Shown: in pieces, positions 19,668 through 31,277 of the stretch
How the letters are laid out: each line of letters begins with the position of its first letter
Position numbering within the stretch: position 1 is the first letter of the stretch
Origin: Enterobacteria phage GEC-3S
Length of the DNA stretch: 64,000 nt
Strand: one strand, 5' to 3'
Sequence record: HE978309
The notes under the pieces: model-generated
What the model was told of the DNA's origin: nothing
The model's input: only the letters and a program-made list of their open reading frames with translations
Databases searched by the model: none
Position numbers and translations under genes: made by a program

Positions 19668-19701
19668 TTGATACTCCTTAGTAGTTCGTTTCGGTATGGG
19701 T

Positions 19702-19733
19702 GTATTATGATATACACCCTCTGTTATGTCAAC
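19702..19733 (-). promoter_or_regulatory. Sigma70-like early promoter
   Basis: Minus strand AAAAAGTTGTTGACA ... CATAAT, conserved leader CCGAAACGAA plus GGAG RBS. Confidence 0.55.
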
Positions 19734-19739
19734 AACTTT

Positions 19740-19919
19740 TTAGAACATTTTTGAAATTAATTTTGCTTTGATTTCGCAGAGAACACCTAAAGATTTCTCG
19801 TCACCCGCTTTTGCTGCTTCTGATTGCATTTTTGAAATGGCTTCAATGTCAGTGCAATTATAAGCCGCTTGAACTTTAGCGATTGCGATGATTGCCGATT
19901 CGATGGTTAAGTGTTTCAT
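19740..19919 (-). CDS. Hypothetical early protein (59 aa)
   Basis: MKHLTIESAIIAIAKVQAAYNCTDIEAISKMQ...; RBS GGAGAATCAA; below ORF-track cutoff. Confidence 0.45.
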   Translation of the reverse strand: MKHLTIESAIIAIAKVQAAYNCTDIEAISKMQSEAAKAGDEKSLGVLCEIKAKLISKMF

Positions 19920-19951
19920 GTTTGATTCTCCTTTCGTTTCGGTATGTGTGC

Positions 19952-19981
19952 ATTATAGGGGATCACCGATCCCCTGTCAAC
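19952..19981 (-). promoter_or_regulatory. Sigma70-like early promoter with palindromic spacer
   Basis: TTGACA - GGGGATCGGTGATCCCC (17 nt) - TATAAT on minus strand. Confidence 0.6.
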
Positions 19982-19987
19982 AACTTT

Positions 19988-20506
19988 TTAGTTATTTTTT
20001 AATTGCTCATCTTGCAATAGGGAAATCACATGCTGGCGATGTTCTTCCGATTGAGGAACACCGAAAAAGTTTGTTTTGTAGAAATACTCTAATCGGTCTT
20101 CTCGTGTGCTCTCTTCCATCATGATCGCGGGTAGTCCGAGATTTCGGAAACGTCGCTTTTCTGCTGGCGTAAAATCACTGTAATACAACATAGAATCATC
20201 ATTACCCGCAATGCTAAATTCATCCTTCATAAAGGAGAATATTGCGTTTAAACGCTGTTTACCGTCCACGATTTCGATCTCATAGCGAGATCCATCATCA
20301 ATCTTAGCCATTGCGATAGCACCAACCGGAAAATCATTAATCAGGTTTTCGATAAACATACGTTTGTTTTCGGTGTCCCATACCAAAGGACGCTGATAAT
20401 CTGGGTTCATGTTGATATAGCCATCTTCTAACCACGCCTCATAAACAGAGATGACAAAGTTTTTAGTATTGGTATAGTAACGGCGTTTAGGCGTTAAACG
20501 GTTCAT
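19988..20506 (-). CDS. DUF262 / ParB-like nuclease-domain protein
   Basis: NPDYQRPLVWD ... IVDGKQRLNAI resembles DUF262 DGQQR-type motif; ATG at 20506 with GGAG RBS, adjacent to stop of upstream gene. Confidence 0.6.
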   Translation of the reverse strand: MNRLTPKRRYYTNTKNFVISVYEAWLEDGYINMNPDYQRPLVWDTENKRMFIENLINDFPVGAIAMAKIDDGSRYEIEIVDGKQRLNAIFSFMKDEFSIAGNDDSMLYYSDFTPAEKRRFRNLGLPAIMMEESTREDRLEYFYKTNFFGVPQSEEHRQHVISLLQDEQLKNN

Positions 20507-20507
20507 G

Positions 20508-20840
20508 TTATAGTCTCCTGAATGGATCATCACGTAAATCAATATCTTTTAAGAACTCATCCCATGAATGGCGGATATTGTTCTTAATTCTCCAGATAAG
20601 CGCAGGGATTGAACGCTCTCCCATCTGGAAGTAGGGATCATATGATCCGTATGCCCAATATGCTACTACAATTCCACAATCAGCGCAATAGTATTCTATT
20701 TCACTTGCTGGCGACCAAATTCCATCAATATGATCGGTGATCCTGCTTTCGATGTTATGGCTATGGCAATCAGGGCAACGGATGCAATGACCTTGTTTAT
20801 CGTAATTTGACGTTAGCGAATACTTAAACAATCTCATCAT
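20508..20840 (-). CDS. Cys/His zinc-ribbon-like protein (110 aa)
   Basis: CIRCPDCHSH ... CADCG; ATGA overlap with upstream methyltransferase-like gene. Confidence 0.55.
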   Translation of the reverse strand: MMRLFKYSLTSNYDKQGHCIRCPDCHSHNIESRITDHIDGIWSPASEIEYYCADCGIVVAYWAYGSYDPYFQMGERSIPALIWRIKNNIRHSWDEFLKDIDLRDDPFRRL

Positions 20841-21553
20841 AGATCCTTATTGGCTTCAAATACTGCCTTTGCGAATCCTCGCGGGGTAAGTGACCTGATA
20901 GTCTTTGTTCTGGTTCCTTTCCCGCCTAGCTTAGAATGCTGTTTACTGTACCCTTTATTAATATGCAACGGTTTCTTTTCTGGCATTATAAAGCCTTGTC
21001 CGGTCCATAAGCAAGTCTTTTTCGGGTACATATCACGGGCGGCGATATACTCAGGAAACGTAGGATGTTTATCATCTTCCGGCAAATAACCGCCATATTC
21101 CCACGGATGGAACATGTAATCAGGCTTACGCCACATACTAGAGATAACGCTTACAGGATTCTCTATCATGTAGGGAACTCCTAGCCATTCACCCAAATAA
21201 GCGGTTATTTTAGCTGCCCGTACATCATGAACTTGAATCAACGGTCCTTGTTCTCGTTTCTTTCGTTCAAAGTGTGCAGCGCCACTAACAGCTAAATTGG
21301 TACACGGTGGGAATGCAAAGATAATATCCGGTTTCCCCCATTCAAGGTCCATTGCTCTTTCCAGCCAGTTCAAATCAATCCAGGTGTTTACATAGGTAAT
21401 GTTTGGATGTTCAAATCTGGTATTATACTTTTTGTATGTACCGTGGTCGGCGTCATCCGCATTAAAGCAGACTACCTTATGACCTGCTTTAGCCCATTCT
21501 AGACCCATTATCCCCGATCCATCAAAGTTGCAGAATATTAATTTTTGTTTCAT
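20837..21553 (-). CDS. Compact DNA (cytosine-5)-methyltransferase-like protein
   Basis: Motif I FCNFDGSGIMG, motif IV FPPCTNLAVSG, motif VI MIENP, C-terminal RSLTPRGFAKA in canonical C5-MTase order; only 238 aa. Confidence 0.6.
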   Translation of the reverse strand: MKQKLIFCNFDGSGIMGLEWAKAGHKVVCFNADDADHGTYKKYNTRFEHPNITYVNTWIDLNWLERAMDLEWGKPDIIFAFPPCTNLAVSGAAHFERKKREQGPLIQVHDVRAAKITAYLGEWLGVPYMIENPVSVISSMWRKPDYMFHPWEYGGYLPEDDKHPTFPEYIAARDMYPKKTCLWTGQGFIMPEKKPLHINKGYSKQHSKLGGKGTRTKTIRSLTPRGFAKAVFEANKDL

Positions 21554-21795
21554 ATACGACCCTTTAACCCAGCACAGATTTTAGTCGGTTCTTTACCGTG
21601 CCACATTAAGTAAAGTCCGTTAATGCGACCTTGTTTTGTGTGTGATTCTTTTCTGATCTTCTTATAGTGTCGTGCTTCCTCAACTGATTGTTTAGAATAC
21701 CAATCATAAAGGAAGAGGCACAAAGGCCAACCATTAGCGGCCTTAATGCAGTTATTAAGAAATTCCTTATTGCGTTTAATTAATTTTCTTTTCAC
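21550..21795 (-). CDS. Hypothetical basic protein (81 aa), GTG start
   Basis: GTGA overlap with upstream gene and ATGA overlap with downstream gene. Confidence 0.45.
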   Translation of the reverse strand: MKRKLIKRNKEFLNNCIKAANGWPLCLFLYDWYSKQSVEEARHYKKIRKESHTKQGRINGLYLMWHGKEPTKICAGLKGRI

Positions 21796-22043
21796 GCTGC
21801 CCCCGTTGGTTTGATAGTAACAGAATCTAAAAGACCTTTGTTAGCCAGTTCGCGGCAAGTTTTCAGATCCGCAACTTCCCAGCCAGCCGCAATCAGGTTA
21901 TCAATCAGGCTGTTAGCAACTTCTTCGCTCATGAAAGAGCACTGTTTGCCGATGGTGTAGCGTACACGCTGTAATTTCAGTTTACGGAAGCCTTTAACGT
22001 TCAGGTCTTTAGCGATTTTCTTTGCGGTTTCGATGTTAGCCAT
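21792..22043 (-). CDS. Hypothetical protein (83 aa), first gene of five-gene operon
   Basis: Own sigma70-like promoter and GGAGAATCAA RBS. Confidence 0.55.
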   Translation of the reverse strand: MANIETAKKIAKDLNVKGFRKLKLQRVRYTIGKQCSFMSEEVANSLIDNLIAAGWEVADLKTCRELANKGLLDSVTIKPTGAA

Positions 22044-22083
22044 TGTTTGATTCTCCTAAGTGGTATCTCGTCTTGATGGTTGT

Positions 22084-22113
22084 ATTGTAGGGGAGTTATC
22101 CTCCCCTGTCAAC
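22084..22113 (-). promoter_or_regulatory. Sigma70-like early promoter with palindromic spacer
   Basis: TTGACA - GGGGAGGATAACTCCCC - TACAAT on minus strand. Confidence 0.6.
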
Positions 22114-22126
22114 ACTTTTTATAAAA

Positions 22127-22294
22127 TTATTTGTTAATTTCTGGTGCGTTGCTAGGATAGTAACCTTCTTTAACTCCGAGGTATTTCGCAACCATCCCTA
22201 CAATCTTCTGTGCTACTACAATGTCAAATTTCAGATAATCTTCGCCGTAGGTTTCAATGATATATGCTTCACATGCTGCTTTAGTCTCGAACAT
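22127..22294 (-). CDS. Hypothetical early protein (55 aa); paralog of 25403..25570
   Basis: MFETKAACEAYIIETYGEDYLKFDIVVAQKIVGMVAKYLGVKEGYYPSNAPEINK; near-identical C-terminus to 25403..25570. Confidence 0.45.
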   Translation of the reverse strand: MFETKAACEAYIIETYGEDYLKFDIVVAQKIVGMVAKYLGVKEGYYPSNAPEINK

Positions 22295-22329
22295 TTTGAT
22301 TCTCCTATATTTCGTTTCGGTATGGGTGT

Positions 22330-22359
22330 ATTATAGGGGATCTCCCGATCCCCGTCAAC
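22330..22359 (-). promoter_or_regulatory. Sigma70-like early promoter with palindromic spacer
   Basis: TTGACG - GGGGATCGGGAGATCCCC - TATAAT on minus strand. Confidence 0.6.
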
Positions 22360-22372
22360 AACTTTTTTAAAA

Positions 22373-22654
22373 TTATTCGTGATTAGTTTCGATGTTGTGC
22401 ATTTTGCACCAGTTCAGCCAATCGACCAGGTCTTGATAGTTGATGCTTTTATCTGCTGCCATCGTTTTTGTCTTGATACCCATATGTGCGTTATGAGTAA
22501 GCATTTTTACAGTGAACTCAATTTTATCGCCTTTAGCTTTAACATCAACCAGTTTGGTCCACTGGCTACCAGCGCCGCGAATGTTCATGCCAACGATGTT
22601 TCCGATGTATGCTTCTTTGTTTTTCAGGATTTCGGTTGCTTTGATGAATTTCAT
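22373..22654 (-). CDS. Hypothetical early protein (93 aa)
   Basis: ORF with own promoter and GGAGAATCAAA RBS. Confidence 0.55.
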   Translation of the reverse strand: MKFIKATEILKNKEAYIGNIVGMNIRGAGSQWTKLVDVKAKGDKIEFTVKMLTHNAHMGIKTKTMAADKSINYQDLVDWLNWCKMHNIETNHE

Positions 22655-22687
22655 TTTTGATTCTCCAGTTCGTTTCGGTATGGGTGT

Positions 22688-22717
22688 ATTATGCTATGTT
22701 CTTACTTTGGTGTCAAC
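22688..22717 (-). promoter_or_regulatory. Sigma70-like early promoter
   Basis: TTGACA - 17 nt - CATAAT on minus strand. Confidence 0.55.
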
Positions 22718-22724
22718 AACTTTT

Positions 22725-22994
22725 TTAGATATTTTCAGAAATAAATTTTAAAACTTGACGTAAATGTTTCTCATCTTTGATAGTCGCCGGAAGTTCTTCT
22801 TTTACTTCCTGTGCAAGATAGATATTTCCGTTCCAAGTGAAAGATCCGTCTTCGTTTACGCGATAGCTGAACATCCACTCGCAATCATTTTCGATTTCAT
22901 ATACACATAGAAGAGTATAATCTTCAAAGCTATTGATTTCAAGGTCGAAGCCGTGACGTTTTGCAAAGTTGGTAGTGGTTTTAGTCAGTGCCAT
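22725..22994 (-). CDS. Hypothetical early protein (89 aa)
   Basis: ORF with own promoter and GGAGAATCAAA RBS. Confidence 0.55.
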   Translation of the reverse strand: MALTKTTTNFAKRHGFDLEINSFEDYTLLCVYEIENDCEWMFSYRVNEDGSFTWNGNIYLAQEVKEELPATIKDEKHLRQVLKFISENI

Positions 22995-23034
22995 TGTTTG
23001 ATTCTCCTAAGTGGTATCTCGTTTCGATGGGTGT

Positions 23035-23065
23035 ATTATGCTATAGGCGTGATCTGGTGTCAATT
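23035..23065 (-). promoter_or_regulatory. Sigma70-like early promoter
   Basis: TTGACA - 18 nt - CATAAT on minus strand. Confidence 0.5.
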
Positions 23066-23086
23066 CTTTTTTTAAATTTTATGCAA

Positions 23087-23116
23087 TAAAAAAGCCGACG
23101 CTATGGTCGGCTAATA
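23087..23116 (-). terminator. Hairpin terminator after 23120..23428
   Basis: A-run then GCCGAC-GCTATG-GTCGGC on plus strand. Confidence 0.5.
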
Positions 23117-23119
23117 AAA

Positions 23120-23428
23120 TCATTTAGACAAATAATCATTCAGTGCAATCCGGTCGGCGTATGCTGGTGTTACGTCAATCGCAATCACTTTAACGCGTGC
23201 TTTCTTGCGACCTGGGTTTTCACGTAACCAGTGCTCATGACCGTGAACATTTTTATACTGCGATGCTTCTTCGAAGGTACGGATCGGACCTGGGTAATCA
23301 GCGTAAAGGATCTCTAGATCTTCGGTGATGTAAAAATATACATCGTAATTGCTGTTCTCTAGCTTAAGCAGAGACTTTCGGAACATTGGGAGATTTTCGC
23401 GGGTAAATTCAAAGATATTATCTTTCAT
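23120..23428 (-). CDS. HxHW-motif family protein (paralog 1 of 6)
   Basis: VHGHEHWL...VKVIAIDVTPAYADRIA shared pattern with five other ORFs. Confidence 0.55.
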   Translation of the reverse strand: MKDNIFEFTRENLPMFRKSLLKLENSNYDVYFYITEDLEILYADYPGPIRTFEEASQYKNVHGHEHWLRENPGRKKARVKVIAIDVTPAYADRIALNDYLSK

Positions 23429-23452
23429 AGTATTATCCTCAATAGTTGGATG

Positions 23453-23472
23453 AAAAGGGGCGTTAACGCCCC
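23453..23472 (-). terminator. Hairpin after 23479..23766
   Basis: AAAA-GGGGCG-TTAA-CGCCCC on plus strand. Confidence 0.45.
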
Positions 23473-23478
23473 CATATA

Positions 23479-23766
23479 TTAAAACAGTCCTTCCTGTACA
23501 CCGTAGTAGAGTTCGTCGCTGATAATTTCATTAATGCGACGGTGTGCATATTCCTGATTTGCGAAGTTGTCAGCAAGTTCTATTTTAGTTTCGCCGTCAT
23601 GAGTCCATTTAGTGATAACTTTACCATCTGCAAATTTGAAGTTGAACTCTTTAGCTACTGCATCGCGTACCAGACGTGCAAACTTATTGTTGCGGATTGC
23701 ATTGTCGGTTTCGTGTGCAGCGTGAGCAAATTTGTTAACTTTCAGAGTGATAGTGATGTATGCCAT
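23479..23766 (-). CDS. Hypothetical early protein (95 aa); shares AKEFN motif with 26806..27117
   Basis: ORF with own promoter and GGAGAATCAAA RBS. Confidence 0.55.
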   Translation of the reverse strand: MAYITITLKVNKFAHAAHETDNAIRNNKFARLVRDAVAKEFNFKFADGKVITKWTHDGETKIELADNFANQEYAHRRINEIISDELYYGVQEGLF

Positions 23767-23812
23767 AATTTGATTCTCCTAGTTAGAAAGTGTATCTCGT
23801 TTCGATGGGGAT

Positions 23813-23842
23813 ATTATGCTATATCCCCGATCCGGTGTCAAC
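23813..23842 (-). promoter_or_regulatory. Sigma70-like early promoter, palindrome spanning -10
   Basis: TTGACA ... GGGGATAT-AGCATA-ATATCCCC containing CATAAT. Confidence 0.55.
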
Positions 23843-23847
23843 ACTTT

Positions 23848-24126
23848 TTATAAAATAATTTTTTGATATTTTTCTATGATGTTCGTGTAAGTCACATCAA
23901 CCGCTAGCACTGTTGCTTCGAATCCACCGTTTAGCCAATGGCTATGATCATGGTCGTGAAAGAAACCTAGACCAGTACGAAGACCTTCTTTATATTCTGC
24001 GCGTACATTCAGTTTGTCGTCGATAAACAGATAAAACCATGAATTTTTACTAGGATTGATGATACAACCTTTCAGATTAGGGAGAATATCACGACTAAGA
24101 ATAAACTTATCACCTACTTTGAACAT
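23848..24126 (-). CDS. HxHW-motif family protein (paralog 2)
   Basis: FHDHDHSHWL...TVLAVDVT; internal ATG at 24126 with GAGGA RBS. Confidence 0.55.
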   Translation of the reverse strand: MFKVGDKFILSRDILPNLKGCIINPSKNSWFYLFIDDKLNVRAEYKEGLRTGLGFFHDHDHSHWLNGGFEATVLAVDVTYTNIIEKYQKIIL

Positions 24127-24130
24127 AATA

Positions 24131-24451
24131 TTAGTCCTCACTTATAAGGTCAAACCAATTGTTTTTCGCATAATGCTTAATGCGTGCTTGATCTGCTTCC
24201 GCTGGTGATAGATTCCATGCAACCACTACAACTTCTGACGCATCGTCATCAGTTTCCGATACCCAATGATTGTGATTCATACAGTTATTTGCTATCGAGT
24301 GAGCAAATGATTTCATCACTGGAGACGTATAATCATAGTAACGGATTTTCAGATTTTCATCAACATACAAATAGATCGTATAAGGTTTATATTCAGTAAC
24401 AAGTAACAGACAGTTACGCAATTCTGGGAAAATCTTTTTAGTTAATTTCAT
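24131..24451 (-). CDS. HxHW-motif family protein (paralog 3)
   Basis: MNHNHWVSE...VVVVAWNLSPAEADQA. Confidence 0.55.
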   Translation of the reverse strand: MKLTKKIFPELRNCLLLVTEYKPYTIYLYVDENLKIRYYDYTSPVMKSFAHSIANNCMNHNHWVSETDDDASEVVVVAWNLSPAEADQARIKHYAKNNWFDLISED

Positions 24452-24653
24452 ATTCTAGTTCTCCGTAATACACGGTAATCCATTTTTCTTCATATTTTGT
24501 ATCTTTCCAGCACACAATACCGTTTACTGTGCAATCTTTGGAATTGACGAATGATTCATATTGTTCCGCATCTTCCATCATTTCATGAGCGGTCTTTTCA
24601 TCGAATATATCGCAGATCGCTTTATATGCTCGATAATCTTTAAATTTGCTCAT
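24438..24653 (-). CDS. Hypothetical small protein (71 aa); tandem paralog of 24656..24865
   Basis: Both start MSKFKDY[RK]AY; internal ATG at 24653. Confidence 0.45.
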   Translation of the reverse strand: MSKFKDYRAYKAICDIFDEKTAHEMMEDAEQYESFVNSKDCTVNGIVCWKDTKYEEKWITVYYGELEYEIN

Positions 24654-24655
24654 AA

Positions 24656-24865
24656 TTAACACCACTCAAGAGTTTTTGAAAACACATCTATCCATTGTTG
24701 AGTATATGCGGTTTCTTTCCATGATACAATACCAGTCGAATAATGGTTTTTGTTTCCAGAAAAGGACGGGCATTTTGATGCATCTTCCATCATCTTTTCG
24801 GCGAACTCTGGTTCGTATACTCGCAAGATCTGTTGATATGCTTTATAATCTTTAAACTTACTCAT
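24656..24865 (-). CDS. Hypothetical small protein (69 aa); tandem paralog of 24438..24653
   Basis: ATGA overlap with upstream gene. Confidence 0.5.
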   Translation of the reverse strand: MSKFKDYKAYQQILRVYEPEFAEKMMEDASKCPSFSGNKNHYSTGIVSWKETAYTQQWIDVFSKTLEWC

Positions 24866-25146
24866 AACAACACCACCGATACATCGTAATCATTCGCGAC
24901 CTTATCGGCTTCTTCAACCGACATAATACCTTCTGCGACAATTGGCATAGGGTGATCGTGATTCCACCAATGGTCATGTATATCAATTTCAGTTTTGCCG
25001 GAAAATGAATCATGTTTGACGTTTTTCACTTTATACCCGATGTGACCGTCGTGGTCAATAAAGATATAGTTTCCGAAAATCGGTGTCTGTAAAATCATAC
25101 CGAAAAATTTTTCTTTGTTGTTCGGGTCGAGTGTAATCATTTTCAT
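24862..25146 (-). CDS. HxHW-motif family protein (paralog 4)
   Basis: IDIHDHWWNHDH...AEGIMSVEEADKVA; AAGAGG RBS. Confidence 0.55.
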   Translation of the reverse strand: MKMITLDPNNKEKFFGMILQTPIFGNYIFIDHDGHIGYKVKNVKHDSFSGKTEIDIHDHWWNHDHPMPIVAEGIMSVEEADKVANDYDVSVVLL

Positions 25147-25158
25147 AATATATTCCTC

Positions 25159-25338
25159 TTAGAAAGGGATGGTCATTTCTTGAGCTTGTACATTCTCGTT
25201 AGGATTAAACTTCATCCAACCGATATTGTCTACCAGCATATGCACATTTTTATCATATCCTACGTGAGTAGTCAACACTAAATGTGCTTTACATTCAACG
25301 ATGATTTCCATGTACTTCTGAACTTCGATAGCTTTCAT
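25159..25338 (-). CDS. Hypothetical early protein (59 aa)
   Basis: MKAIEVQKYMEIIVECKAHLVLTTHVGYDKNVHMLVDNIGWMKF...; GGAGAATCAAA RBS; below ORF-track cutoff. Confidence 0.45.
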   Translation of the reverse strand: MKAIEVQKYMEIIVECKAHLVLTTHVGYDKNVHMLVDNIGWMKFNPNENVQAQEMTIPF

Positions 25339-25370
25339 TTTGATTCTCCGTTTGTTGTCTTGATGGGAGT

Positions 25371-25400
25371 ATCTTACTACTCCCTTTAATCATTGTCAAC
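25371..25400 (-). promoter_or_regulatory. Sigma70-like early promoter (GGGAGTA...TACTCCC palindrome around -10)
   Basis: TTGACA - 17 nt - TAAGAT; palindrome identical to copies near 35.02 and 61.85 kb. Confidence 0.5.
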
Positions 25401-25402
25401 GA

Positions 25403-25570
25403 TTATTTGTTAATTTCTGGTGCGTTGCTCGGATAGTAACCTTCTTTAACACCCAGATATTTTGCAACCATTCCGGTGATCTTCTGTGCTACTACGATAT
25501 CGAATTTCAGGTAGTCTTCACCGTGGTTTGCTACAATGTATGCTTCGCATTCTGCTTTAGTCTGGAACAT
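25403..25570 (-). CDS. Hypothetical early protein (55 aa); paralog of 22127..22294
   Basis: MFQTKAECEAYIVANHGEDYLKFDIVVAQKITGMVAKYLGVKEGYYPSNAPEINK; internal ATG of ORF-track ORF 25403..25636. Confidence 0.5.
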   Translation of the reverse strand: MFQTKAECEAYIVANHGEDYLKFDIVVAQKITGMVAKYLGVKEGYYPSNAPEINK

Positions 25571-25604
25571 TTTTGATTCTCCTATATCTCGTTGGTATGT
25601 GTGT

Positions 25605-25634
25605 AGTATAGGGGATCGGTGATCCCCTGTCAAC
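25605..25634 (-). promoter_or_regulatory. Sigma70-like early promoter with palindromic spacer
   Basis: TTGACA - GGGGATCACCGATCCCC - TATACT on minus strand. Confidence 0.6.
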
Positions 25635-25641
25635 AACTTTT

Positions 25642-25950
25642 TTATTCTTCATCTTCATTTTTATCTTTATATGCGTACTTCATAAATTTGTCTGCTACTT
25701 TGTCCGCGTTTTCAGGTTCTACGTCTGACGCTAGGACAACAGCTAGTTCGGTTTTGTCGTTTCCGTCATACCAATGATTATGAGTGTCGTTTTCTTCGAT
25801 ATAAAACGAATCATTTGGAGTTGTTCGACAATATACGTCTAAATTCCCATCGATATAAAAGATCCAATCCGAATACAAAATGATTGCTTTAGCCAGATTT
25901 TTATTGTCTCTTACAAAAGGTTCCGCGACAAATAGCTTAGTTTGTTCCAT
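25642..25950 (-). CDS. HxHW-motif family protein (paralog 5)
   Basis: NDTHNHWYDG...ELAVVLASDVEPENADKVA; ATG at 25950 with GAGGAA RBS. Confidence 0.55.
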   Translation of the reverse strand: MEQTKLFVAEPFVRDNKNLAKAIILYSDWIFYIDGNLDVYCRTTPNDSFYIEENDTHNHWYDGNDKTELAVVLASDVEPENADKVADKFMKYAYKDKNEDEE

Positions 25951-25966
25951 AATATTTTCCTCAAAA

Positions 25967-26158
25967 TTATACAGCTTCGTAAACTTCCCAATGTTCAGCG
26001 CCAACACGCTTAACGAAAAGGTTTTCTTTGATGTTATTCATAAACGTCTGGATAGATTTAATGCGGTTGGAAGGTTTCCAGTCTTCGTTGGCATTGCGGC
26101 GATACATAATAACATTACCAGTTCGCTTATATTCAGCAACCATTTTAAGATCACACAT
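25967..26158 (-). CDS. Hypothetical small protein (63 aa)
   Basis: ORF with GAGGA RBS. Confidence 0.45.
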   Translation of the reverse strand: MCDLKMVAEYKRTGNVIMYRRNANEDWKPSNRIKSIQTFMNNIKENLFVKRVGAEHWEVYEAV

Positions 26159-26215
26159 AATATTATCCTCAATTTGTGGGAGAGTATTACCCCTCCCAAT
26201 GATTGTTATGTTATA

Positions 26216-26536
26216 TCACACAAAATGGCGTGTCAATGCTTCTTTTGCGGTTCCGCTAAGACTTTCGATCTCGCCTGGCATAACATCAACCGCCAGAACT
26301 TCGACAACATCCTCGGACCCTAACCAGTGAGTATGGCCTTTGTAGAACTTGATAACCAGACTACCTTCCTCATCCCATTTAACGCTATCGCTAGCCCACC
26401 ACACATCACCGTCGATAAAGTTGATGTAAAGCACACTACGCCACATTGAATTAATTACTTTCAATACTGCGCCTTTCATCTCTTCCACGGTATGGTCTTC
26501 CATTTTGAAGACCTCACCTACCTGAACTTTTGCCAT
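26216..26536 (-). CDS. HxHW-motif family protein (paralog 6)
   Basis: YKGHTHWLGSEDVVEVLAVDVMP; GAGAGGTGA RBS. Confidence 0.55.
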   Translation of the reverse strand: MAKVQVGEVFKMEDHTVEEMKGAVLKVINSMWRSVLYINFIDGDVWWASDSVKWDEEGSLVIKFYKGHTHWLGSEDVVEVLAVDVMPGEIESLSGTAKEALTRHFV

Positions 26537-26553
26537 TTAGTCACCTCTCTTTA

Positions 26554-26733
26554 TTACATAACAATCACGCCAGCCGTTGAAAGTTGATGTTTCAACTGAG
26601 CATTTTCTGCTACCGTCAAATCAATGATTTCTTGTGACGCTGCAATCATATATCCATTGGTGATATTGTTTTGCATCAGTTCAATGGTTTCTTCGTTGTA
26701 GCGGATTTTAGCGATGATTTCGTTGAAGTTCAT
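26554..26733 (-). CDS. Hypothetical early protein (59 aa)
   Basis: MNFNEIIAKIRYNEETIELMQNNITNGYMIAASQEIIDLTVAENAQLKHQ...; GGAGAATCAATC RBS; below ORF-track cutoff. Confidence 0.45.
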   Translation of the reverse strand: MNFNEIIAKIRYNEETIELMQNNITNGYMIAASQEIIDLTVAENAQLKHQLSTAGVIVM

Positions 26734-26767
26734 GATTGATTCTCCTAGTTCGTTTCGGTATGTGTGT

Positions 26768-26798
26768 ATTATAGGGGATCTCCCGATCCCCTGTCAAC
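26768..26798 (-). promoter_or_regulatory. Sigma70-like early promoter with palindromic spacer
   Basis: TTGACA - GGGGATCGGGAGATCCCC - TATAAT on minus strand. Confidence 0.6.
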
Positions 26799-26805
26799 AA
26801 CTTTT

Positions 26806-27117
26806 TTAAAGTTTTTCCATGATAACGGTCATAATTACATCTTCTGCGCGAGCGGTCAGATTATCAGCGTCAGCATGTGGGCGGTTGGTTGTTACAGAGA
26901 TAGCACCGTTGCGCACTGGTTTGATATTGATATCAAGATGATCCGCGAAACGTTCGCCAGTTACAGAATGAATTTTGGTGTTAAATTCTTTTGCCAGTGC
27001 CTTGCGAACTTCACGAATCAGGGTAGCGTTTTTCAGTTGGTTCTCCGCGCTCATGGTCTTCTGGGTGTTCATGGTTCCGTCGAAGTCAATCATTGGCAGC
27101 GTTACGATGTATTTCAT
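26806..27117 (-). CDS. Hypothetical early protein (103 aa)
   Basis: ORF with own promoter and GGAGAATCAAA RBS. Confidence 0.55.
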   Translation of the reverse strand: MKYIVTLPMIDFDGTMNTQKTMSAENQLKNATLIREVRKALAKEFNTKIHSVTGERFADHLDINIKPVRNGAISVTTNRPHADADNLTARAEDVIMTVIMEKL

Positions 27118-27162
27118 TTTTGATTCTCCGTTTAAGAAAGTGTGTTTCGTTTTGATGTGTGT

Positions 27163-27193
27163 ATTATAAGGGGATCACCGATCCCCTGTCAAC
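27163..27193 (-). promoter_or_regulatory. Sigma70-like early promoter with palindromic spacer
   Basis: TTGACA - GGGGATCGGTGATCCCC - TATAAT on minus strand. Confidence 0.6.
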
Positions 27194-27204
27194 AACTTTT
27201 TGAA

Positions 27205-27681
27205 TTATTTTTCTTGATGCTCGCGCTCGTACTTTTCGAAATAAAATTCTACTGGCTGATCGTGGATTGAAAGCAAGCCAAAGCGTTTAGCCGCTCGCAA
27301 TCCCATATTGCGCTGAATGTACTTCTGGAAGTTCTCGCGTATACACTTACGCCAGTATTCTAAGCCCATACAGCTTTTATAAAGATTGCATTGCACACAC
27401 GCCGGATTCATGTTATCAAGTATATCATGTTCCGGTTTATGCATTCCTACAACCTTATACTTCCACGATCCATCATCATTACGGGCAATTCGTCCATTTT
27501 CATCATAGACTACCTTTGAGCGTCGCAATACTGGTTTGATATGGTCTGCGTGCCAGCGATCCCCTAGTTCCTCGCCACAATAGGCACAACGCCCACCGTA
27601 TTTCATTTTCAGGATCTGGCGTTGCTCTTTCTTTGACAATTTTTTAGGTTTAGGGGCTTTCGCCCCTTCATTATCACACAT
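27205..27681 (-). CDS. HNH homing-endonuclease-like protein
   Basis: CAYCG ... WHADHIKP ... CVQCN (HNH-type Cys/His motifs); overlaps 3' end of ligase gene by 8 nt. Confidence 0.7.
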   Translation of the reverse strand: MCDNEGAKAPKPKKLSKKEQRQILKMKYGGRCAYCGEELGDRWHADHIKPVLRRSKVVYDENGRIARNDDGSWKYKVVGMHKPEHDILDNMNPACVQCNLYKSCMGLEYWRKCIRENFQKYIQRNMGLRAAKRFGLLSIHDQPVEFYFEKYEREHQEK

Positions 27682-29170
27682 CGAATACCTCTTTTACTGT
27701 ATTTGCCGTGGTCTTGTCGTAGCGAATACGTTTGATGATCGGGAGAAATAAAGAGAACTCCGGTTCATCTTCTTTACGTGATTTGCTGCGAATGTACCCG
27801 TTGCATGTCATCTCAATGACTTTTCCGACCAGGTTATGCCGTTCAGCCCATAACATTTCTCGGTCAAGTTCATTTCGACGATCGAACGGAATTACACGTT
27901 CAGTACCATCATCACCTTTTTCGGTTGTAGTGTCGGTTAATCCCGATCCGGTGTTAGTCATCATTCGTCCGCACGCACTACGGACAGTAAAACCGCCTAC
28001 CTTATTGGGGTCTTTACTATGCGGATATACATCAACAATTTCCGCGTCGAAGTCAATAACTTCTTTAAATTTAACCTGATCTTTACTGCGACGATCTTCA
28101 AATACACCATGTAAATTTTTAAGGATAATACCTTCTAAGCCCATGTTTACATAGCGATGATATACTTCGCGAGCTTCATCGATATTGTTAACTACGGTAT
28201 TTTCGATTATCTGAACACGAGGATCGTTAAGTTCTTCAACAATCTGTTTTAGTTCTTCGAATCGATCTTTATATTGCTTCGTTGCTTTCTCGTTTCCGTA
28301 ATACACATCACGGTCGATAACATCCCAGACAGTGTAAACAATACATTGGGCTTCTTCTTTTGGAATAGTTCCTTTCAGTGATTTGTTGAGGATACCATTT
28401 CCGGTCTGACGATCTGCAACAACGGATTCTTTCACCGCTTCCGCTACTGGCGTTAATGGCATTTCCTCTTCTTCAAATATCCATGACAGAGTACCATCAT
28501 AAACGCTCTCAACGAAGTTCTGCGCTGGTGTTTGCGAAAGGGTAGGCATATATACCAATTCGCCATCTAGAACAATTCCACGGCCTCGTAGACGCTCTAA
28601 AACCGCAAACAAATCATCAAGCCCTTGATAGGTATTACCTGAGCGGGTATAGATTGCTAATGTTTCCCCGTCAATATCAGCCATACCACGAGCGCCATCG
28701 CTTTTAAGTTGTGCATACGCCGGATACTTGATATTAGAAATAGTCTTATCAGAACATGACGATGCAAGGTGGCACGGTTGCTGAGGGATCAGTTTCTTCC
28801 ATACCTTGTTTGCAGTGGTAGCGGAACAACCGCATTCCAGGTCACGATTCAGGACCATCATTGCAACTTTAGCATCATCCTCTGACAAGCAAGTCAGAGT
28901 ATCGGTAACTAGCTGTAATGCTGCGTTGCCAGTTACTTGACGCGTGGCAAGTTTATTTTTAAAGACCTGTAATGCACCGGATAAAGACAATACAGACGAA
29001 TAGCGAGATGGTTTATCGTATTTCTTTACGCCAAACGTAACCTGTTTGCAATATGCCAGATAAAAGCATTCTTTCAGCGTTTCATTGCTCGCGGATTCTT
29101 TCAGAATCTTTTCTTTCAGCGATGTTTTGTCTGTTGCTGCAAGCTGATTAATGATATTAAGAATTGACAT
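27674..29170 (-). CDS. 30: ATP-dependent DNA ligase gp30
   Basis: Aligns with T4 DNA ligase (AQLKSDGAR KxDG site; TRQVTGNAA; NRDLECG; ANKSLKGTI.KEEAQC; EGIILKN); ATG at 29170 with GAGGTG RBS. Confidence 0.93.
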   Translation of the reverse strand: MSILNIINQLAATDKTSLKEKILKESASNETLKECFYLAYCKQVTFGVKKYDKPSRYSSVLSLSGALQVFKNKLATRQVTGNAALQLVTDTLTCLSEDDAKVAMMVLNRDLECGCSATTANKVWKKLIPQQPCHLASSCSDKTISNIKYPAYAQLKSDGARGMADIDGETLAIYTRSGNTYQGLDDLFAVLERLRGRGIVLDGELVYMPTLSQTPAQNFVESVYDGTLSWIFEEEEMPLTPVAEAVKESVVADRQTGNGILNKSLKGTIPKEEAQCIVYTVWDVIDRDVYYGNEKATKQYKDRFEELKQIVEELNDPRVQIIENTVVNNIDEAREVYHRYVNMGLEGIILKNLHGVFEDRRSKDQVKFKEVIDFDAEIVDVYPHSKDPNKVGGFTVRSACGRMMTNTGSGLTDTTTEKGDDGTERVIPFDRRNELDREMLWAERHNLVGKVIEMTCNGYIRSKSRKEDEPEFSLFLPIIKRIRYDKTTANTVKEVFDV

Positions 29171-29636
29171 TTTCACCTCGTTTTGTTAAACGTTCACGAA
29201 TATCATTGAGGATACTACAAAATTCCGATTCAGTCAATATAGTCTTTAACGGATCTGTTCCACCTATACTATGACGCAATTTCTTATTTCCGGTAGCGAG
29301 TAATGCTTTACAAAATTCTGGGTTATTCCGTGCCATCGTAACAAATGCCAGATGTACCAGTCTGTAATAATGCTCACTCATTCGATGAATCGGGCGACCC
29401 TGAAAATATAGCATGTGATTCTCTATCTTTTCAGTCCTTCCGGTTCTTTTTGCTTTGCCACCGTGCATCAAAAAGATTTCTCTTTGTCTCTGGGGGTTCT
29501 TGAATCTTAATCCCTGTAAAAATCCTTCTGTGCTGTTAATATCGCAACCAAATAGACGGAATGGTCTTTTATTGAAATTACTCAATTCACCCGATGGATA
29601 AGGTCCACCCGCATAGATATCAATTTCATAAGTCAT
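29157..29636 (-). CDS. NADAR (YbiA-like) domain protein
   Basis: SNFNKRPF, STEGFLQGLRF, KALLATGNKKL...GG resemble NADAR family motifs; function inferred. Confidence 0.5.
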   Translation of the reverse strand: MTYEIDIYAGGPYPSGELSNFNKRPFRLFGCDINSTEGFLQGLRFKNPQRQREIFLMHGGKAKRTGRTEKIENHMLYFQGRPIHRMSEHYYRLVHLAFVTMARNNPEFCKALLATGNKKLRHSIGGTDPLKTILTESEFCSILNDIRERLTKRGENVNS

Positions 29637-29790
29637 TGAAACTAATCTCGCTAATCAGAGAGAACGGATCATAATCGTCATTAGGAATATCGATAGTAAT
29701 CGAATGAGGATTTACCCATACACCAAACTGGTCTTCTTCGGTGAATACTTCGGTATGGATTTCGTGGATGTTTACATTCATAGTTTTCAT
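29626..29790 (-). CDS. Hypothetical small protein (54 aa)
   Basis: ATG with AAGGAA RBS; stop overlaps NADAR start; below ORF-track cutoff. Confidence 0.4.
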   Translation of the reverse strand: MKTMNVNIHEIHTEVFTEEDQFGVWVNPHSITIDIPNDDYDPFSLISEISFNDL

Positions 29791-29839
29791 AATAAAATTC
29801 CTTAATAATCAATAACTTACAAAATCATATAGCCAAAAT

Positions 29840-29866
29840 ATAGGCGGGATTATTTCCCGCCGTTTA
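29840..29866 (-). terminator. Hairpin terminator after gene 31
   Basis: GGCGGGA-TTATTT-CCCGCC followed on minus strand by U-rich tract. Confidence 0.5.
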
Positions 29867-29873
29867 AAAATCA

Positions 29874-30197
29874 TTAACCGTAAACTACCACAATATTCTG
29901 TTTGTGCGTTACAGTCCATTTCAGGTCGATCTCTTCTTCCTTCTTAACGCCGTTAATAACGTCTGGATGAGGAACTTTATTCATCTTTCCGTGTGGCAGT
30001 AGAACAGTTTTACCCAGCAATTCTTTATCTACAGTTTCACCAATATCAATAATCTTACCTACCAGCGGAATCTCGCCCATAGTGCGCTTTTGCTCAATAA
30101 TGATCCCCATAGAGCTTTTTACTTCGGTCCCTGCGCTTTCTGCTTTAGCTTCGATAATTACATAATCACCAAGTGCTTTAGGAGTTTTAACGGTCAT
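29874..30197 (-). CDS. 31: Co-chaperonin gp31 (GroES-like)
   Basis: 107 aa; GEYVI/GDYVII, SGLIIG-like, VPHP motifs shared with T4 gp31; T4 position. Confidence 0.7.
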   Translation of the reverse strand: MTVKTPKALGDYVIIEAKAESAGTEVKSSMGIIIEQKRTMGEIPLVGKIIDIGETVDKELLGKTVLLPHGKMNKVPHPDVINGVKKEEEIDLKWTVTHKQNIVVVYG

Positions 30198-30238
30198 AAT
30201 TTTATTACCTCTTCAAATCAATACAGTTTAATGATGAA

Positions 30239-30553
30239 TTATTTATAAATTTCGACGATCTGTGCTGGAGTCAGCCCGTCTACATTAATCAGACTATCAA
30301 GCCCAAAACTACGGAAACCTTCAACTGCAATTTCATATACGGGCAAAGATGTTTCTGATTCTTTACGCGGTTTTTCTACATTAGGAACTAACCACTTTTC
30401 GTATGTTTCAAACGGCATCAGTGCCGGATCTCGCGTGGCGATCATCTCGCGGACAGTACCATCTTTCTTAGTAAACTGCAAAGAGTGAGTACCGACCGAA
30501 AACATTTTCTTTAGTGCTTCACGAATTGCGATATTATCAATTTGTTCAGTCAT
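30239..30553 (-). CDS. Hypothetical protein (104 aa)
   Basis: ORF; ATG at 30553 (ORF-track start at 30559 is TTG). Confidence 0.5.
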   Translation of the reverse strand: MTEQIDNIAIREALKKMFSVGTHSLQFTKKDGTVREMIATRDPALMPFETYEKWLVPNVEKPRKESETSLPVYEIAVEGFRSFGLDSLINVDGLTPAQIVEIYK

Positions 30554-31052: not shown

Positions 31053-31073
31053 AATATAATCCTCACATATTAA

Positions 31074-31277
31074 TTAACCGTATACGCGAAAGTATTCTAC
31101 TGATCCGTCGCTATACTGTTTTACATTGAATGTATTCACACCATGATTATTGCTCATAATGACATATACACTACGACGCTCATCGCTAAACGGGTTAACT
31201 GGTGCGGGTTCAATTTCAACATTAAAACCACGTTTAGCAAGTGCTTCGCCTAATTGCTTGAGTTTATCGGTAAACAT
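31074..31277 (-). CDS. Hypothetical small protein (67 aa)
   Basis: ORF with GGAGAC RBS; TAATG coupling to pseT. Confidence 0.5.
   Translation of the reverse strand: MFTDKLKQLGEALAKRGFNVEIEPAPVNPFSDERRSVYVIMSNNHGVNTFNVKQYSDGSVEYFRVYG

What the first reader, a model, noticed from the sequence alone, without database searches (positions are those of the whole stretch)
19988..22043. Coupled five-gene early operon: C5-methyltransferase-like, zinc-ribbon and DUF262/ParB-like proteins
Five ORFs are joined by ATGA/GTGA overlaps behind a single promoter. The 238-aa protein carries C5-MTase motifs I, IV, VI and the C-terminal R.LTPR motif in canonical order, but is too short to hold a normal target-recognition domain. 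A Cys/His zinc-ribbon protein and a DUF262-like protein follow. DUF262 is otherwise best known as the N-terminal domain of modified-DNA-dependent type IV restriction enzymes. A methyltransferase paired with a DUF262 protein in a T4-like phage is not a combination I recognise. It could be a DNA modification or counter-restriction module.
Basis: partly seen in the sequence, partly recalled or inferred. Interest (0 to 1): 0.8.

Follow-up and report, generated by a model that had tools for sequence, protein, structure and literature searches.

The report
Phage mini-Dcm methylase accessory gene cassette
The five genes are a real early operon of an RB49/Phi1-type coliphage, but its short methyltransferase belongs to an already characterised family of stand-alone phage cytosine methylases, and its pairing with the DUF262 protein is a genus-specific juxtaposition of unrelated accessory genes rather than a conserved system.

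Summary
On the minus strand, 19988-22043 carries five tightly packed genes between two promoter/stem-loop (PeSL) cassettes of a Krischvirus (98.7% identical to phage Phi1 ORF190-187).

The 238-aa protein is a genuine C5-cytosine methyltransferase of the widespread phage "mini-Dcm" family. This family is found in 1,523 of 50,697 phage records. The protein is 56% identical over its full length to the Dcm of phage KarlJaspers, a close relative of K42. K42 Dcm has been shown experimentally to 5-methylate cytosine at a CCWGG site and to trigger retron Ec86. Its published key residues align with C84, E131, K178 and K179 here, so the small size is normal for the family.

The 172-aa protein is a nuclease-less DUF262 (ParB/Srx fold) protein. 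It belongs to its own family of about 170-aa phage proteins.

The proposed MTase-DUF262 module is not supported. None of 79 non-Krischvirus MTase loci carries a DUF262 or zinc-ribbon neighbour. None of 78 non-Krischvirus DUF262 loci carries the MTase. All five genes have different distributions.

The cassette is present in 55 of 57 Krischvirus records and is cleanly absent from phage MIZ4.

Verdict: already known and mostly ordinary. The function of the mini-DUF262 protein remains open.

The parts
22084..22112 (-). Upstream PeSL: sigma-70-like early promoter (TTGACA-17-TACAAT) with a G/C stem-loop between the hexamers. It drives the five-gene unit.
   Evidence: 11/12 consensus match. It is one of 7 PeSL-like sites in the window against 0.16 expected. 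PeSLs were shown to act as promoters and terminators in PMC2839356.
21792..22043 (-). p83 (Phi1 ORF190), an 83-aa protein of unknown function found only in Krischvirus.
   Evidence: PHROG 14908, E 2.5e-58. tblastn finds it in 55 phage records, all at least 95% identical. Weak PADLOC hit to the C-terminal part of RT_UG35, E 2.5e-5.
21550..21795 (-). p81 (Phi1 ORF189.1), an 81-aa protein of unknown function with a GTG start overlapping the p83 stop (GTGA). This is a variable slot.
   Evidence: PHROG 7065, E 3.9e-38. Found in 170 phage records, including T5-like and JS98-like phages. Replaced by a 178-aa gene in phiS and absent in IMG/VR locus L100.
20837..21553 (-). Mini-Dcm: a 238-aa C5-cytosine DNA methyltransferase (Phi1 ORF189). 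Motif I is F10-D-G-S-G14. The catalytic residue is P83-C84. E131-N-P is motif VI. K178-K179 and the C-terminal R220-SLTP-R225-G are also present.
   Evidence: PHROG 757, E 9e-91. Pfam PF00145 gives only 15 bits against a cut-off of 22. AF2 pLDDT is 90.9. Best folds are DNMT3A/3B, E 3e-8. It is 56% identical (E 2e-92) to KarlJaspers Dcm. Dcm of the closely related phage K42 is experimentally active.
20508..20840 (-). Zn110 (Phi1 ORF188), a 110-aa Cys-rich zinc-ribbon-like protein of unknown function.
   Evidence: PHROG 2993, E 1.2e-33. Sub-threshold Pfam Zn_Ribbon_TF hit, E 6.5e-4. C19, C22, C25, C52 and C55 are conserved in phage 9g gp22, which is 44% identical. Found in 226 phage records, including Nonagvirus and Felixounavirus.
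19988..20506 (-). Mini-DUF262 (Phi1 ORF187), a 172-aa ParB/Srx-fold protein with no nuclease domain. Motifs are Y37-Q-R-x3-W43, D81-G-K-Q-R85 and the C-terminal N146-F-x-G-V-P-Q-S-E-E-H.
   Evidence: Pfam GmrSD_N, E 3.9e-20. AF2 pLDDT is 95.4. Foldseek finds ParB, PadC, Noc and BrxU. Invariant residues come from 51 sequences. Nearest relatives are about 160-190 aa.
19952..19980 (-). Downstream PeSL (TTGACA-17-TATAAT around a GGGGATC...GATCCCC stem-loop). It is the likely terminator of the five-gene unit and the promoter of the next cassette (ORF186).
   Evidence: 12/12 consensus match and a PeSL pattern match. PeSL stem-loops terminate transcription (PMC2839356). The MIZ4 deletion junction and the SAP 79-bp duplication fall in these repeats.

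Best explanation
The stretch is a PeSL-bounded early transcription unit in a hyperplastic region of a Krischvirus (RB49/Phi1-type) genome. It strings together five accessory genes of separate origin.

Shown here or in the literature:
- The 238-aa product is a member of the phage mini-Dcm family.
- A close relative of a 56%-identical homologue (K42 Dcm) transfers a methyl group to C5 of cytosine at a CCWGG site when expressed alone. The K42 quadruple alanine mutant of the residues corresponding to Cys84, Glu131, Lys178 and Lys179 here was tested.

Inferred:
- In Krischvirus the enzyme is made early. It methylates phage (and host) DNA at CCWGG, possibly the looser CCNGG.
- This would protect the unmodified-cytosine genome from EcoRII-type, and perhaps SsoII/ScrFI-type, restriction. 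The cost is that the product can trigger retron Ec86.
- It needs no partner.
- The zinc-ribbon protein and the 172-aa DUF262 protein are independent accessory proteins that are co-transcribed because they share a cassette.
- The DUF262 protein is most likely a nucleotide-binding ParB/Srx-type switch acting on DNA or on a host protein. Its target is unknown.
For: Identity and operon:
- 98.7% DNA identity to Phi1. Same gene order as Phi1 ORF190-187.
- Promoter and PeSL sites at both ends, none inside. PeSL function is documented in PMC2839356.

Methyltransferase:
- PHROG 757, E 9e-91.
- More than 7,300 homologous clusters; all of the 120 best listed are 219-259 aa.
- Invariant C84, E131 and K178.
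- High-confidence model whose best matches are DNMT3A/3B catalytic domains.
- 56% identity to KarlJaspers bas06_0055, a 711-bp gene.
- The retron Ec86 study of the closely related phage K42 showed that its 711-bp dcm alone methylates msDNA C5 at CCWGG. It used a C82A/E128A/K175A/K176A quadruple mutant and the same DNMT3A structural match. It was published as Cell Rep 2024 43:114857.

Independence of the genes:
- 0 of 79 non-Krischvirus MTase loci have DUF262, Zn110, p83 or p81 within 6 kb, by tblastn and HMM.
- 0 of 78 non-Krischvirus DUF262 loci have the MTase or Zn110 within 8 kb.
- Neither family has a conserved neighbour.
- The five genes occur in 55, 170, 1,523, 226 and 323 phage records respectively.

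Dispensability and cassette behaviour:
- MIZ4 lacks window 19709-22294, with the junction in PeSL repeats.

Consistency with published DNA chemistry:
- Full CCWGG or CCNGG methylation would be only 0.19-0.26% of C. This fits TB34 DNA showing no detectable modified nucleoside and RB49 DNA being cut by HpaII and NheI.
Against: - No methylation data exist for any Krischvirus. TB34, which carries the operon, showed no detectable modified nucleosides by HPLC-MS, so activity in this genus is inferred from a 56%-identical homologue.
- The MTase, Zn110 and DUF262 genes stay together in every Krischvirus variant seen, while p81, p83 and ORF186 vary. They are also translationally close-packed. This is compatible with a functional trio.
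- Phage ParB-like proteins are known activators of another class of DNA-modifying enzymes (PMC13229309).
- The role assigned to the DUF262 and zinc-ribbon proteins is weak. It rests only on fold and motifs.
Confidence: 0.75

Rival explanations
1. Functional trio. The TRD-poor methyltransferase works with the zinc-ribbon protein and the ParB/Srx-fold DUF262 protein. These would load it on DNA, activate it or set its specificity, in the way ParB-like activators switch on some phage thymine dioxygenases.
For: - Tight coupling of the three genes.
- The trio is never split in Krischvirus variants, although flanking genes vary.
- Precedent of ParB-dependent phage 5mYOX enzymes whose ParB lacks a DNA-binding domain (PMC13229309).
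- The DUF262 keeps its nucleotide-binding motifs.
Against: - K42 Dcm, the enzyme of a phage closely related to the 56%-identical KarlJaspers, is active alone in E. coli.
- 0 of 79 and 0 of 78 reciprocal neighbourhood tests show the pairing.
- All Krischvirus copies are more than 95% identical, so co-retention carries little weight.
- The activator ParBs belong to PF02195 and have a dimerisation domain. They are not DUF262.
Confidence: 0.1
2. Modification plus shield. The phage methylates its DNA, and the nuclease-less DUF262 protein acts as a decoy or dominant-negative subunit against host GmrSD/BrxU-type type IV enzymes that would cut 5mC DNA.
For: - BrxU cleaves 5mC DNA and is a DUF262 enzyme (PMC13390438). 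The DUF262 model matches BrxU's N-terminal domain.
- Bacterial type IV systems with an extra nuclease-less GmrS-like subunit exist (PMC12373910).
- TB34 is not restricted by BrxU.
Against: - SAP carries the same operon (no substitutions in the region) yet is restricted by BrxU.
- Mini-DUF262 genes occur in many phages that lack this MTase in the sampled neighbourhoods.
- No binding or inhibition data exist.
Confidence: 0.06
3. The methyltransferase-like protein is not a site-specific DNA protector in this phage. It may be inactive, act on host DNA or RNA for takeover, or be the first step of a cytosine hypermodification route that would explain the hmC and glucosyl-hmC reported for phage SAP.
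For: - TB34 DNA shows no detectable modification.
- The SAP modification pathway is unexplained and Krischvirus lacks hmC synthase and glucosyltransferase genes.
- SAP differs from TB34 by a 79-bp PeSL duplication next to this operon.
Against: - All catalytic residues are invariant, and the family is active on DNA.
- SAP and TB34 have identical coding sequences in the operon.
- The authors report no glucosyltransferase in these genomes and could not identify a modification pathway. I did not scan for a TET/JBP dioxygenase.
- The expected 5mC content is below 0.3% of C, which explains the HPLC result.
Confidence: 0.07

Closest known systems
Phage K42 / KarlJaspers (Bas06) Dcm, the trigger of retron Ec86 (Wang et al., Cell Rep 2024; bioRxiv 10.1101/2023.08.16.553469)
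   Same: Full-length homologue: 56% identity to KarlJaspers Dcm, 236 against 238 aa. The K42 residues C82, E128, K175 and K176 map to C84, E131, K178 and K179 here. Same DNMT3A-like fold, same minimal recognition region, stand-alone gene.
   Different: It sits in a T4-type myovirus rather than a Drexlerviridae siphovirus. Here it is embedded in a five-gene unit. Its activity, target motif (CCWGG or CCNGG) and ability to trigger the retron are untested for this copy.
E. coli Dcm / M.EcoRII (CCWGG C5-methyltransferases) and canonical Pfam PF00145 enzymes
   Same: Same chemistry and catalytic motifs (FxGxG, PC, ENx). The homologue uses the same reported target site.
   Different: About half the length of Dcm. 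It lacks a canonical large target-recognition domain and an obvious QxRxR motif. It scores below the Pfam gathering threshold (15 against 22 bits). A profile of the family finds no PDB sequence.
DNMT3A/DNMT3B catalytic domain
   Same: Closest solved folds (Foldseek E 3e-8 to 1e-6, probability 1.0). These are also C5-MTases with a very small recognition loop.
   Different: Only 13-19% identity and TM 0.41-0.53. The eukaryotic enzymes work as DNMT3L-assisted tetramers on CpG.
GmrSD / BrxU / SspE type IV restriction enzymes (DUF262 + DUF1524)
   Same: The 172-aa protein has the DUF262 N-terminal domain with the DGQQR-type motif (DGKQR here).
   Different: There is no DUF1524/HNH nuclease domain in the protein or downstream. 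It belongs to a separate family of about 170-aa proteins with its own C-terminal GVPQSEEH motif.
ParB-like activators of phage thymine dioxygenases (PMC13229309)
   Same: A phage-encoded ParB/Srx-fold protein without a DNA-binding domain, encoded next to a post-replicative DNA-modifying enzyme.
   Different: Those belong to PF02195, carry a C-terminal dimerisation domain, and co-occur consistently with their enzyme. Here the co-occurrence is confined to one genus, and the enzyme family is active alone.
PeSL cassettes of RB49/Phi1 (Arbiol et al. 2010, PMC2839356)
   Same: Same phage group and same promoter/stem-loop elements flanking non-essential genes. Insertions and deletions occur at PeSL junctions.
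   Different: None. This is an instance of that known architecture, with five genes in one cassette.

Membership tests
C5-cytosine DNA methyltransferase (PF00145 type) | Motif I FxGxG (SAM binding) | tested here: met
   F10-D-G12-S13-G14. All four named positions are at least 90% conserved in 41 homologues. The Pfam match covers residues 10-100, profile positions 7-87.
C5-cytosine DNA methyltransferase (PF00145 type) | Motif IV Pro-Cys catalytic nucleophile and motif VI ENV-type Glu | tested here: met
   P82, P83, C84, T85 and E131, N132, P133 are invariant. They align with C82 and E128, two of the four residues changed in the K42 quadruple mutant.
C5-cytosine DNA methyltransferase (PF00145 type) | Score above the curated Pfam threshold | tested here: not met
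   15.0 bits against a cut-off of 22, E 0.017. No NCBIfam hit. No PDB sequence hit with the family profile.
C5-cytosine DNA methyltransferase (PF00145 type) | Motif VIII (QxRxR) and a separate target-recognition domain between motifs VIII and IX | tested here: inconclusive
   No QxRxR is seen. Only about 88 residues lie between E131 and R220. They are highly conserved (W141, R142, K178, K179) and confidently modelled but mostly non-regular.
C5-cytosine DNA methyltransferase (PF00145 type) | C5-MTase fold | tested here: met
   pLDDT 90.9. Top 15 Foldseek hits are DNMT3A/3B/DNMT1, E 3e-8 to 5e-5.
Phage mini-Dcm family (PHROG 757; K42/KarlJaspers Dcm) | Full-length homology at about 230-240 aa, including K175/K176-equivalent lysines and the C-terminal RSLTPRG | tested here: met
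   PHROG 757, E 9e-91. 56% identity, E 2e-92, to bas06_0055. K178 is invariant and K179 is at least 90% conserved.
Phage mini-Dcm family (PHROG 757; K42/KarlJaspers Dcm) | 5-methylation of cytosine at CCWGG | not testable with these tools
   Shown for K42 Dcm by LC-MS and msDNA site mutants. For Krischvirus there is only an indirect hint from assembly differences at CCSGG sites.
GmrSD-type type IV restriction enzyme | N-terminal DUF262 domain with a DGQQR-type motif | tested here: met
   Pfam GmrSD_N, E 3.9e-20. D81-G-K-Q-R85 is invariant or nearly so.
GmrSD-type type IV restriction enzyme | DUF1524/HNH nuclease domain, fused or in an adjacent gene | tested here: not met
   The protein ends at 172 aa, 7 nt before a PeSL. 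There is no second domain in Pfam. Downstream ORFs in other phages are unrelated to each other, lack Pfam hits and are absent from the window.
ParB/Srx superfamily | ParB/Srx nucleotide-binding fold | tested here: met
   pLDDT 95.4. Foldseek finds PadC, ParB, Noc, BrxU, KorB and sulfiredoxin (best E 6e-4, TM 0.42-0.47).
ParB/Srx superfamily | NTP binding and hydrolysis | not testable with these tools
   Only motif conservation is available.
Restriction-modification system | A cognate endonuclease encoded next to the methyltransferase | tested here: not met
   None of the four neighbours hits a nuclease family in Pfam, PHROGs, NCBIfam or PADLOC. The exception is a weak REase_II model hit that lies on the DUF262 domain itself.
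PeSL cassette (RB49/Phi1 hyperplastic regions) | Strong sigma-70 promoter with a stem-loop, flanking non-essential genes, with indels at the repeats | tested here: met
   Sites at 22084-22112 and 19952-19980. The MIZ4 deletion of 19709-22294 has its junction in the repeats. Definition in PMC2839356.

The most novel reading that the evidence does not exclude
In Krischvirus the mini-Dcm, the zinc-ribbon protein and the nuclease-less DUF262 protein act as one unit. The ParB/Srx-fold protein, perhaps with the zinc ribbon, would be a nucleotide-dependent activator or targeting factor for a methyltransferase that has almost no recognition domain of its own. It might widen the target from CCWGG to CCNGG. 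Alternatively it would shield the 5mC-marked genome from GmrSD-type enzymes. This would extend the newly described ParB-activated DNA-modification principle from dioxygenases to methyltransferases.
Probability: 0.1. Interest if true: 0.6.

Novelty: already known. Interest (0 to 1): 0.22.

Why it matters
If my reading is right, little changes. The operon has been in GenBank since RB49 and Phi1. The methyltransferase is annotated as such in RefSeq, and its family has a published activity and a published role as a retron trigger.

Three practical points follow.
- Krischvirus phages, usually treated as having unmodified DNA, probably carry sparse 5mC at CCWGG or CCNGG. That matters for restriction, retron Ec86 sensitivity and nanopore base-calling.
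- The roughly 170-aa mini-DUF262 family is a widespread phage protein family with no known function and no conserved partner. About 450 representative clusters score below E 1e-10. It is common in T4-type phages of genera (Krischvirus, Slopekvirus, Pseudotevenvirus) that I recall as lacking hmC; I did not check this here. It is a reasonable target for an anti-defence or regulator screen.
- Natural variants such as MIZ4 (no cassette) and phiS (p81 replaced) provide ready-made genetic controls.

Tried and rejected
- **PDB sequence search.** A search with the MTase family profile gave 0 hits at E up to 1. NCBIfam gave nothing for four of the five proteins.
- **Truncated GmrSD.** I looked for a nuclease domain downstream and in partner ORFs of Morganella vB_Mm5, Klebsiella Miro and Citrobacter Margaery. 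The partners have no Pfam hits, are not related across these phages (only Miro and Margaery share a short C-terminal stretch), and are absent from the window. Rejected.
- **Conserved partner.** I clustered neighbours of 79 MTase loci and 78 DUF262 loci. No family is present in more than 29 and 11 loci respectively, and none is relevant.
- **Zinc-ribbon protein as a trans-acting recognition subunit.** Its homologues in phage 9g and Felixounavirus have no MTase neighbour.
- **Link to the unexplained hmC/glucosyl-hmC of phage SAP.** SAP and TB34 coding sequences in the operon are identical. The only local difference is a 79-bp PeSL duplication. No support.
- **Word-index homologue searches.** The search for Zn110 returned only itself. 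The search for DUF262 returned only 7 proteins. The exhaustive search was needed.
- **TB34 sequencing platform.** I could not retrieve Kelly et al. 2023 (AEM) to learn it.
Full report
**What is there**

The window is a Krischvirus, the RB49/Phi1 group of T4-type coliphages. Bases 19700-22300 are 98.7% identical to Phi1 and 97-98% identical to more than 50 other records.

On the minus strand, five ORFs run head to tail:
- p83, 21792-22043
- p81, 21550-21795, GTG start
- a 238-aa protein, 20837-21553
- a 110-aa Cys-rich protein, 20508-20840
- a DUF262 protein, 19988-20506

The start matching the GenBank annotations of the DUF262 gene is the ATG at 20506, giving 172 aa. The upstream TTG listed mechanically is not used. 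GenBank annotations of Phi1, TB34 and SAP agree. These genes correspond to Phi1 ORF190, 189.1, 189, 188 and 187.

Three junctions are 4-nt overlaps. The last is TAA-C-ATG.

A near-consensus sigma-70 promoter with a stem-loop between its hexamers lies at 22112-22084. A perfect one lies at 19980-19952, directly after the last stop codon. Nothing better than chance lies inside the operon.

These are PeSL elements. Seven occur in the window against 0.16 expected. Arbiol et al. showed that they are strong early promoters and efficient terminators, and that recombination between them shuffles cassettes (PMC2839356).

**The methyltransferase**

Pfam's DNA_methylase model matches only weakly (15 bits, cut-off 22). 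PHROG 757 ("DNA methyltransferase") matches at E 9e-91.

The family is very large. There are more than 7,300 clusters at 90% identity, and the 120 best hits listed are all 219-259 aa. It occurs in 1,523 of 50,697 phage records, including Drexlerviridae, Dhillonvirus, Vequintavirus, Webervirus and others.

In 41 members, P82-P83-C84-T85, E131-N-P, K178 and most positions of R220-S-L-T-P-R225-G are invariant, and F10, G12, S13, G14, T223 and P224 are at least 90% conserved. The AlphaFold model is confident (pLDDT 90.9). Its best solved matches are the DNMT3A/3B catalytic domains, the C5-methyltransferases with the smallest recognition loops (E 3e-8).

The decisive evidence is in the literature. 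The retron Ec86 study isolated escape mutants of phage K42, a KarlJaspers-like phage, in a 711-bp dcm gene. The study showed several things:
- The protein expressed alone triggers the retron.
- LC-MS detected C5 methylation of msDNA.
- Mutating the CCTGG site in the msDNA abolishes sensing.
- The authors made a C82A/E128A/K175A/K176A mutant, guided by an AlphaFold superposition on DNMT3A.

The work was published as Cell Rep 2024 43:114857.

I fetched KarlJaspers. Its 711-bp "Dcm-like" gene is 56% identical to the window protein over the full length (E 2e-92). C82, E128, K175 and K176 align with C84, E131, K178 and K179.

**The DUF262 protein**

Pfam GmrSD_N matches at E 3.9e-20, above threshold. 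There is no nuclease domain.

An exhaustive search shows that the nearest relatives are themselves about 160-190 aa, or about 270 aa with an unannotated N-terminal extension. It is therefore not a truncated GmrSD. It belongs to a mini-DUF262 family.

Conserved features of this family are Y-Q-R-x3-W, D-G-K-Q-R, N146 and a C-terminal NF-x-GVPQSEEH motif. The model (pLDDT 95.4) has the ParB/Srx fold. Matches include PadC, ParB, Noc, BrxU, KorB and sulfiredoxin.

Homologues of 35-41% identity occur in other T4-type phages (Slopekvirus, Pseudotevenvirus, Morganella vB_Mm5), in Salmonella phage ST64B and in many metagenomic phages.

**The zinc-ribbon and small proteins**

Zn110 keeps five Cys shared with phage 9g gp22. 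The His residues are not conserved. Its homologues are in Nonagvirus and Felixounavirus, without an MTase neighbour.

p83 is Krischvirus-only. p81 has distant homologues in T5-like and JS98-like phages.

**Is it a module?**

I tested co-location in both directions.
- Of 80 IMG/VR loci carrying an MTase homologue (46-64% identity), only the Krischvirus locus has DUF262, Zn110, p83 or p81 within 6 kb. This held for both tblastn and a family HMM.
- Of 80 loci carrying a mini-DUF262 homologue, only the two Krischvirus loci have the MTase or Zn110 within 8 kb.
- Neither family has any conserved neighbour.

Within Krischvirus, 55 of 57 records carry the cassette. All copies are more than 95% identical, so there is no depth to infer co-selection.

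Natural variants show cassette behaviour:
- MIZ4 lacks window 19709-22294 exactly between PeSL repeats.
- phiS has p81 replaced.
- One IMG/VR relative lacks p81.

The MTase-Zn110-DUF262 trio is never split in these variants. This is the only point in favour of a functional link, together with a recent precedent that phage ParB-like proteins activate thymine dioxygenases (PMC13229309).

**How it most likely works**

Shown: family membership, catalytic residues and fold of the MTase, and the operon architecture.

From the literature: the family methylates C5 of cytosine at CCWGG without a partner.

Inferred:
- In Krischvirus the enzyme is expressed early and marks the otherwise unmodified genome at CCWGG. 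RB49 is described as having unmodified DNA, and its DNA is cut by HpaII and NheI (PMC4041780).
- This would protect the phage from EcoRII-type restriction.
- Full methylation would amount to only 0.19% (CCWGG) to 0.26% (CCNGG) of cytosines. That reconciles the enzyme with the report that TB34 DNA, which carries this operon, shows no detectable modified nucleoside (PMC13390438).
- CCWGG is about two-fold under-represented in the window: 25 sites against 51.8 +/- 7.0 expected.

The DUF262 protein is probably a nucleotide-dependent switch with an unknown target. The decoy-against-GmrSD idea is weakened because SAP, with an identical operon, is restricted by BrxU.

**A side observation**

The published Snippy table for SAP against TB34 lists 14 simple SNPs, all C>T or G>A. 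The eight that lie in SAP 1-36000 all fall on the central base of a CCSGG pentamer in SAP that reads CCWGG in TB34. Half of the CCSGG sites in that stretch (8 of 16) are affected. Phi1 agrees with SAP at six of the eight.

The remaining differences are 1-nt homopolymer indels that would break essential genes in TB34. This looks like long-read assembly error.

A base-caller trained on Dcm-methylated E. coli DNA could read C(5mC)SGG as CCWGG. From my own knowledge, the DH5alpha host has no enzyme for CCSGG, only Dcm (CCWGG), Dam and M.EcoKI. This is therefore a hint that the phage enzyme methylates CCNGG. The hint is unverified, because I could not establish how TB34 was sequenced.

**Verdict**

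The feature is already known: annotated genomes, a characterised MTase family and a described PeSL architecture. The residual interest lies in the uncharacterised mini-DUF262 family and in the exact specificity of the Krischvirus enzyme.

Noticed in passing
Related genomes: SAP OZ034687.1 1-36000 (L098) against TB34. Window sites 11517 and 13156.: All 14 simple SNPs in the published SAP-vs-TB34 table are C>T or G>A. The 8 I could check each fall on the central base of a CCSGG site in SAP that reads CCWGG in TB34 (8 of 16 CCSGG sites). Phi1 agrees with SAP at 6 of 8. This looks like systematic base-calling error at a methylated motif. It hints that the phage mini-Dcm methylates CCNGG. The sequencing platform of TB34 could not be checked.
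   Followed up: partly
L003 (SAP) 3271-3349, corresponding to just downstream of window 19988: SAP carries a 79-bp duplication of the PeSL immediately after the DUF262 gene. It creates a spurious 38-aa ORF. It is not in the authors' Snippy table, and in the 8.6-kb stretch compared it is the only difference from TB34 other than single-base indels. There is no evidence that it relates to SAP's unexplained hmC/glucosyl-hmC DNA.
   Followed up: partly
window, whole (25 sites, e.g. 21380-21384 inside the MTase gene): CCWGG is about two-fold under-represented: 25 sites against 51.8 +/- 7.0 in dinucleotide-preserving shuffles, with no shuffle as low. This could reflect avoidance of EcoRII-type restriction or 5mC deamination/VSP effects.
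   Followed up: no
window 19709-22294; MIZ4 OR167180.1 (L092): Krischvirus MIZ4 lacks ORF186, the five-gene operon and ORF191 as one block, with the junction inside PeSL repeats. It is a natural knockout isolated on E. coli B.
   Followed up: yes
window 21546-21790; phiS PP449093.1 (L094) 2430-2966; IMG/VR L100: The p81 slot is variable. In phiS it is replaced by an unrelated 178-aa gene. It is absent in a 150-kb IMG/VR relative, where p83 is also truncated.
   Followed up: partly
window 19988-20506 and homologues P0122-P0276: The mini-DUF262 family has a strongly conserved C-terminal motif, NF-x-GVPQSEEH, that is not part of the usual description of DUF262. A sister architecture of about 250-290 aa carries an unannotated N-terminal extension of about 120 aa.
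   Followed up: partly
L089 3000-3890 (Morganella vB_Mm5), L090 3004-3918 (Klebsiella Miro): In other T4-type phages the mini-DUF262 gene is followed, with an overlap, by a 296-304-aa ORF with no Pfam hit. The Mm5 and Miro ORFs show no detectable similarity to each other, and neither has a counterpart in the window.
   Followed up: partly
window 21792-22043 (p83): p83 gives a weak PADLOC hit (E 2.5e-5) to residues 722-785 of the RT_UG35 (DRT) model. This suggests a small domain shared with a defence-associated reverse transcriptase.
   Followed up: no
window 19956-38115 (7 sites: 19956, 22088, 22334, 25609, 26773, 27168, 38091): There are seven PeSL-type promoter/stem-loop sites on the minus strand, against 0.16 expected. 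They mark a hyperplastic region of single- and multi-gene cassettes downstream of alt.
   Followed up: partly
Host fields of Krischvirus records: Several cassette-positive Krischvirus phages (MIZ2, MIZ3, MIZ6) have E. coli B as their recorded host, and RB49 stock was propagated on E. coli B. The lineage of E. coli B carries retron Ec86, which is triggered by the homologous K42 Dcm. Either this enzyme does not trigger the retron, or T4-type phages tolerate or counter it. Untested.
   Followed up: no
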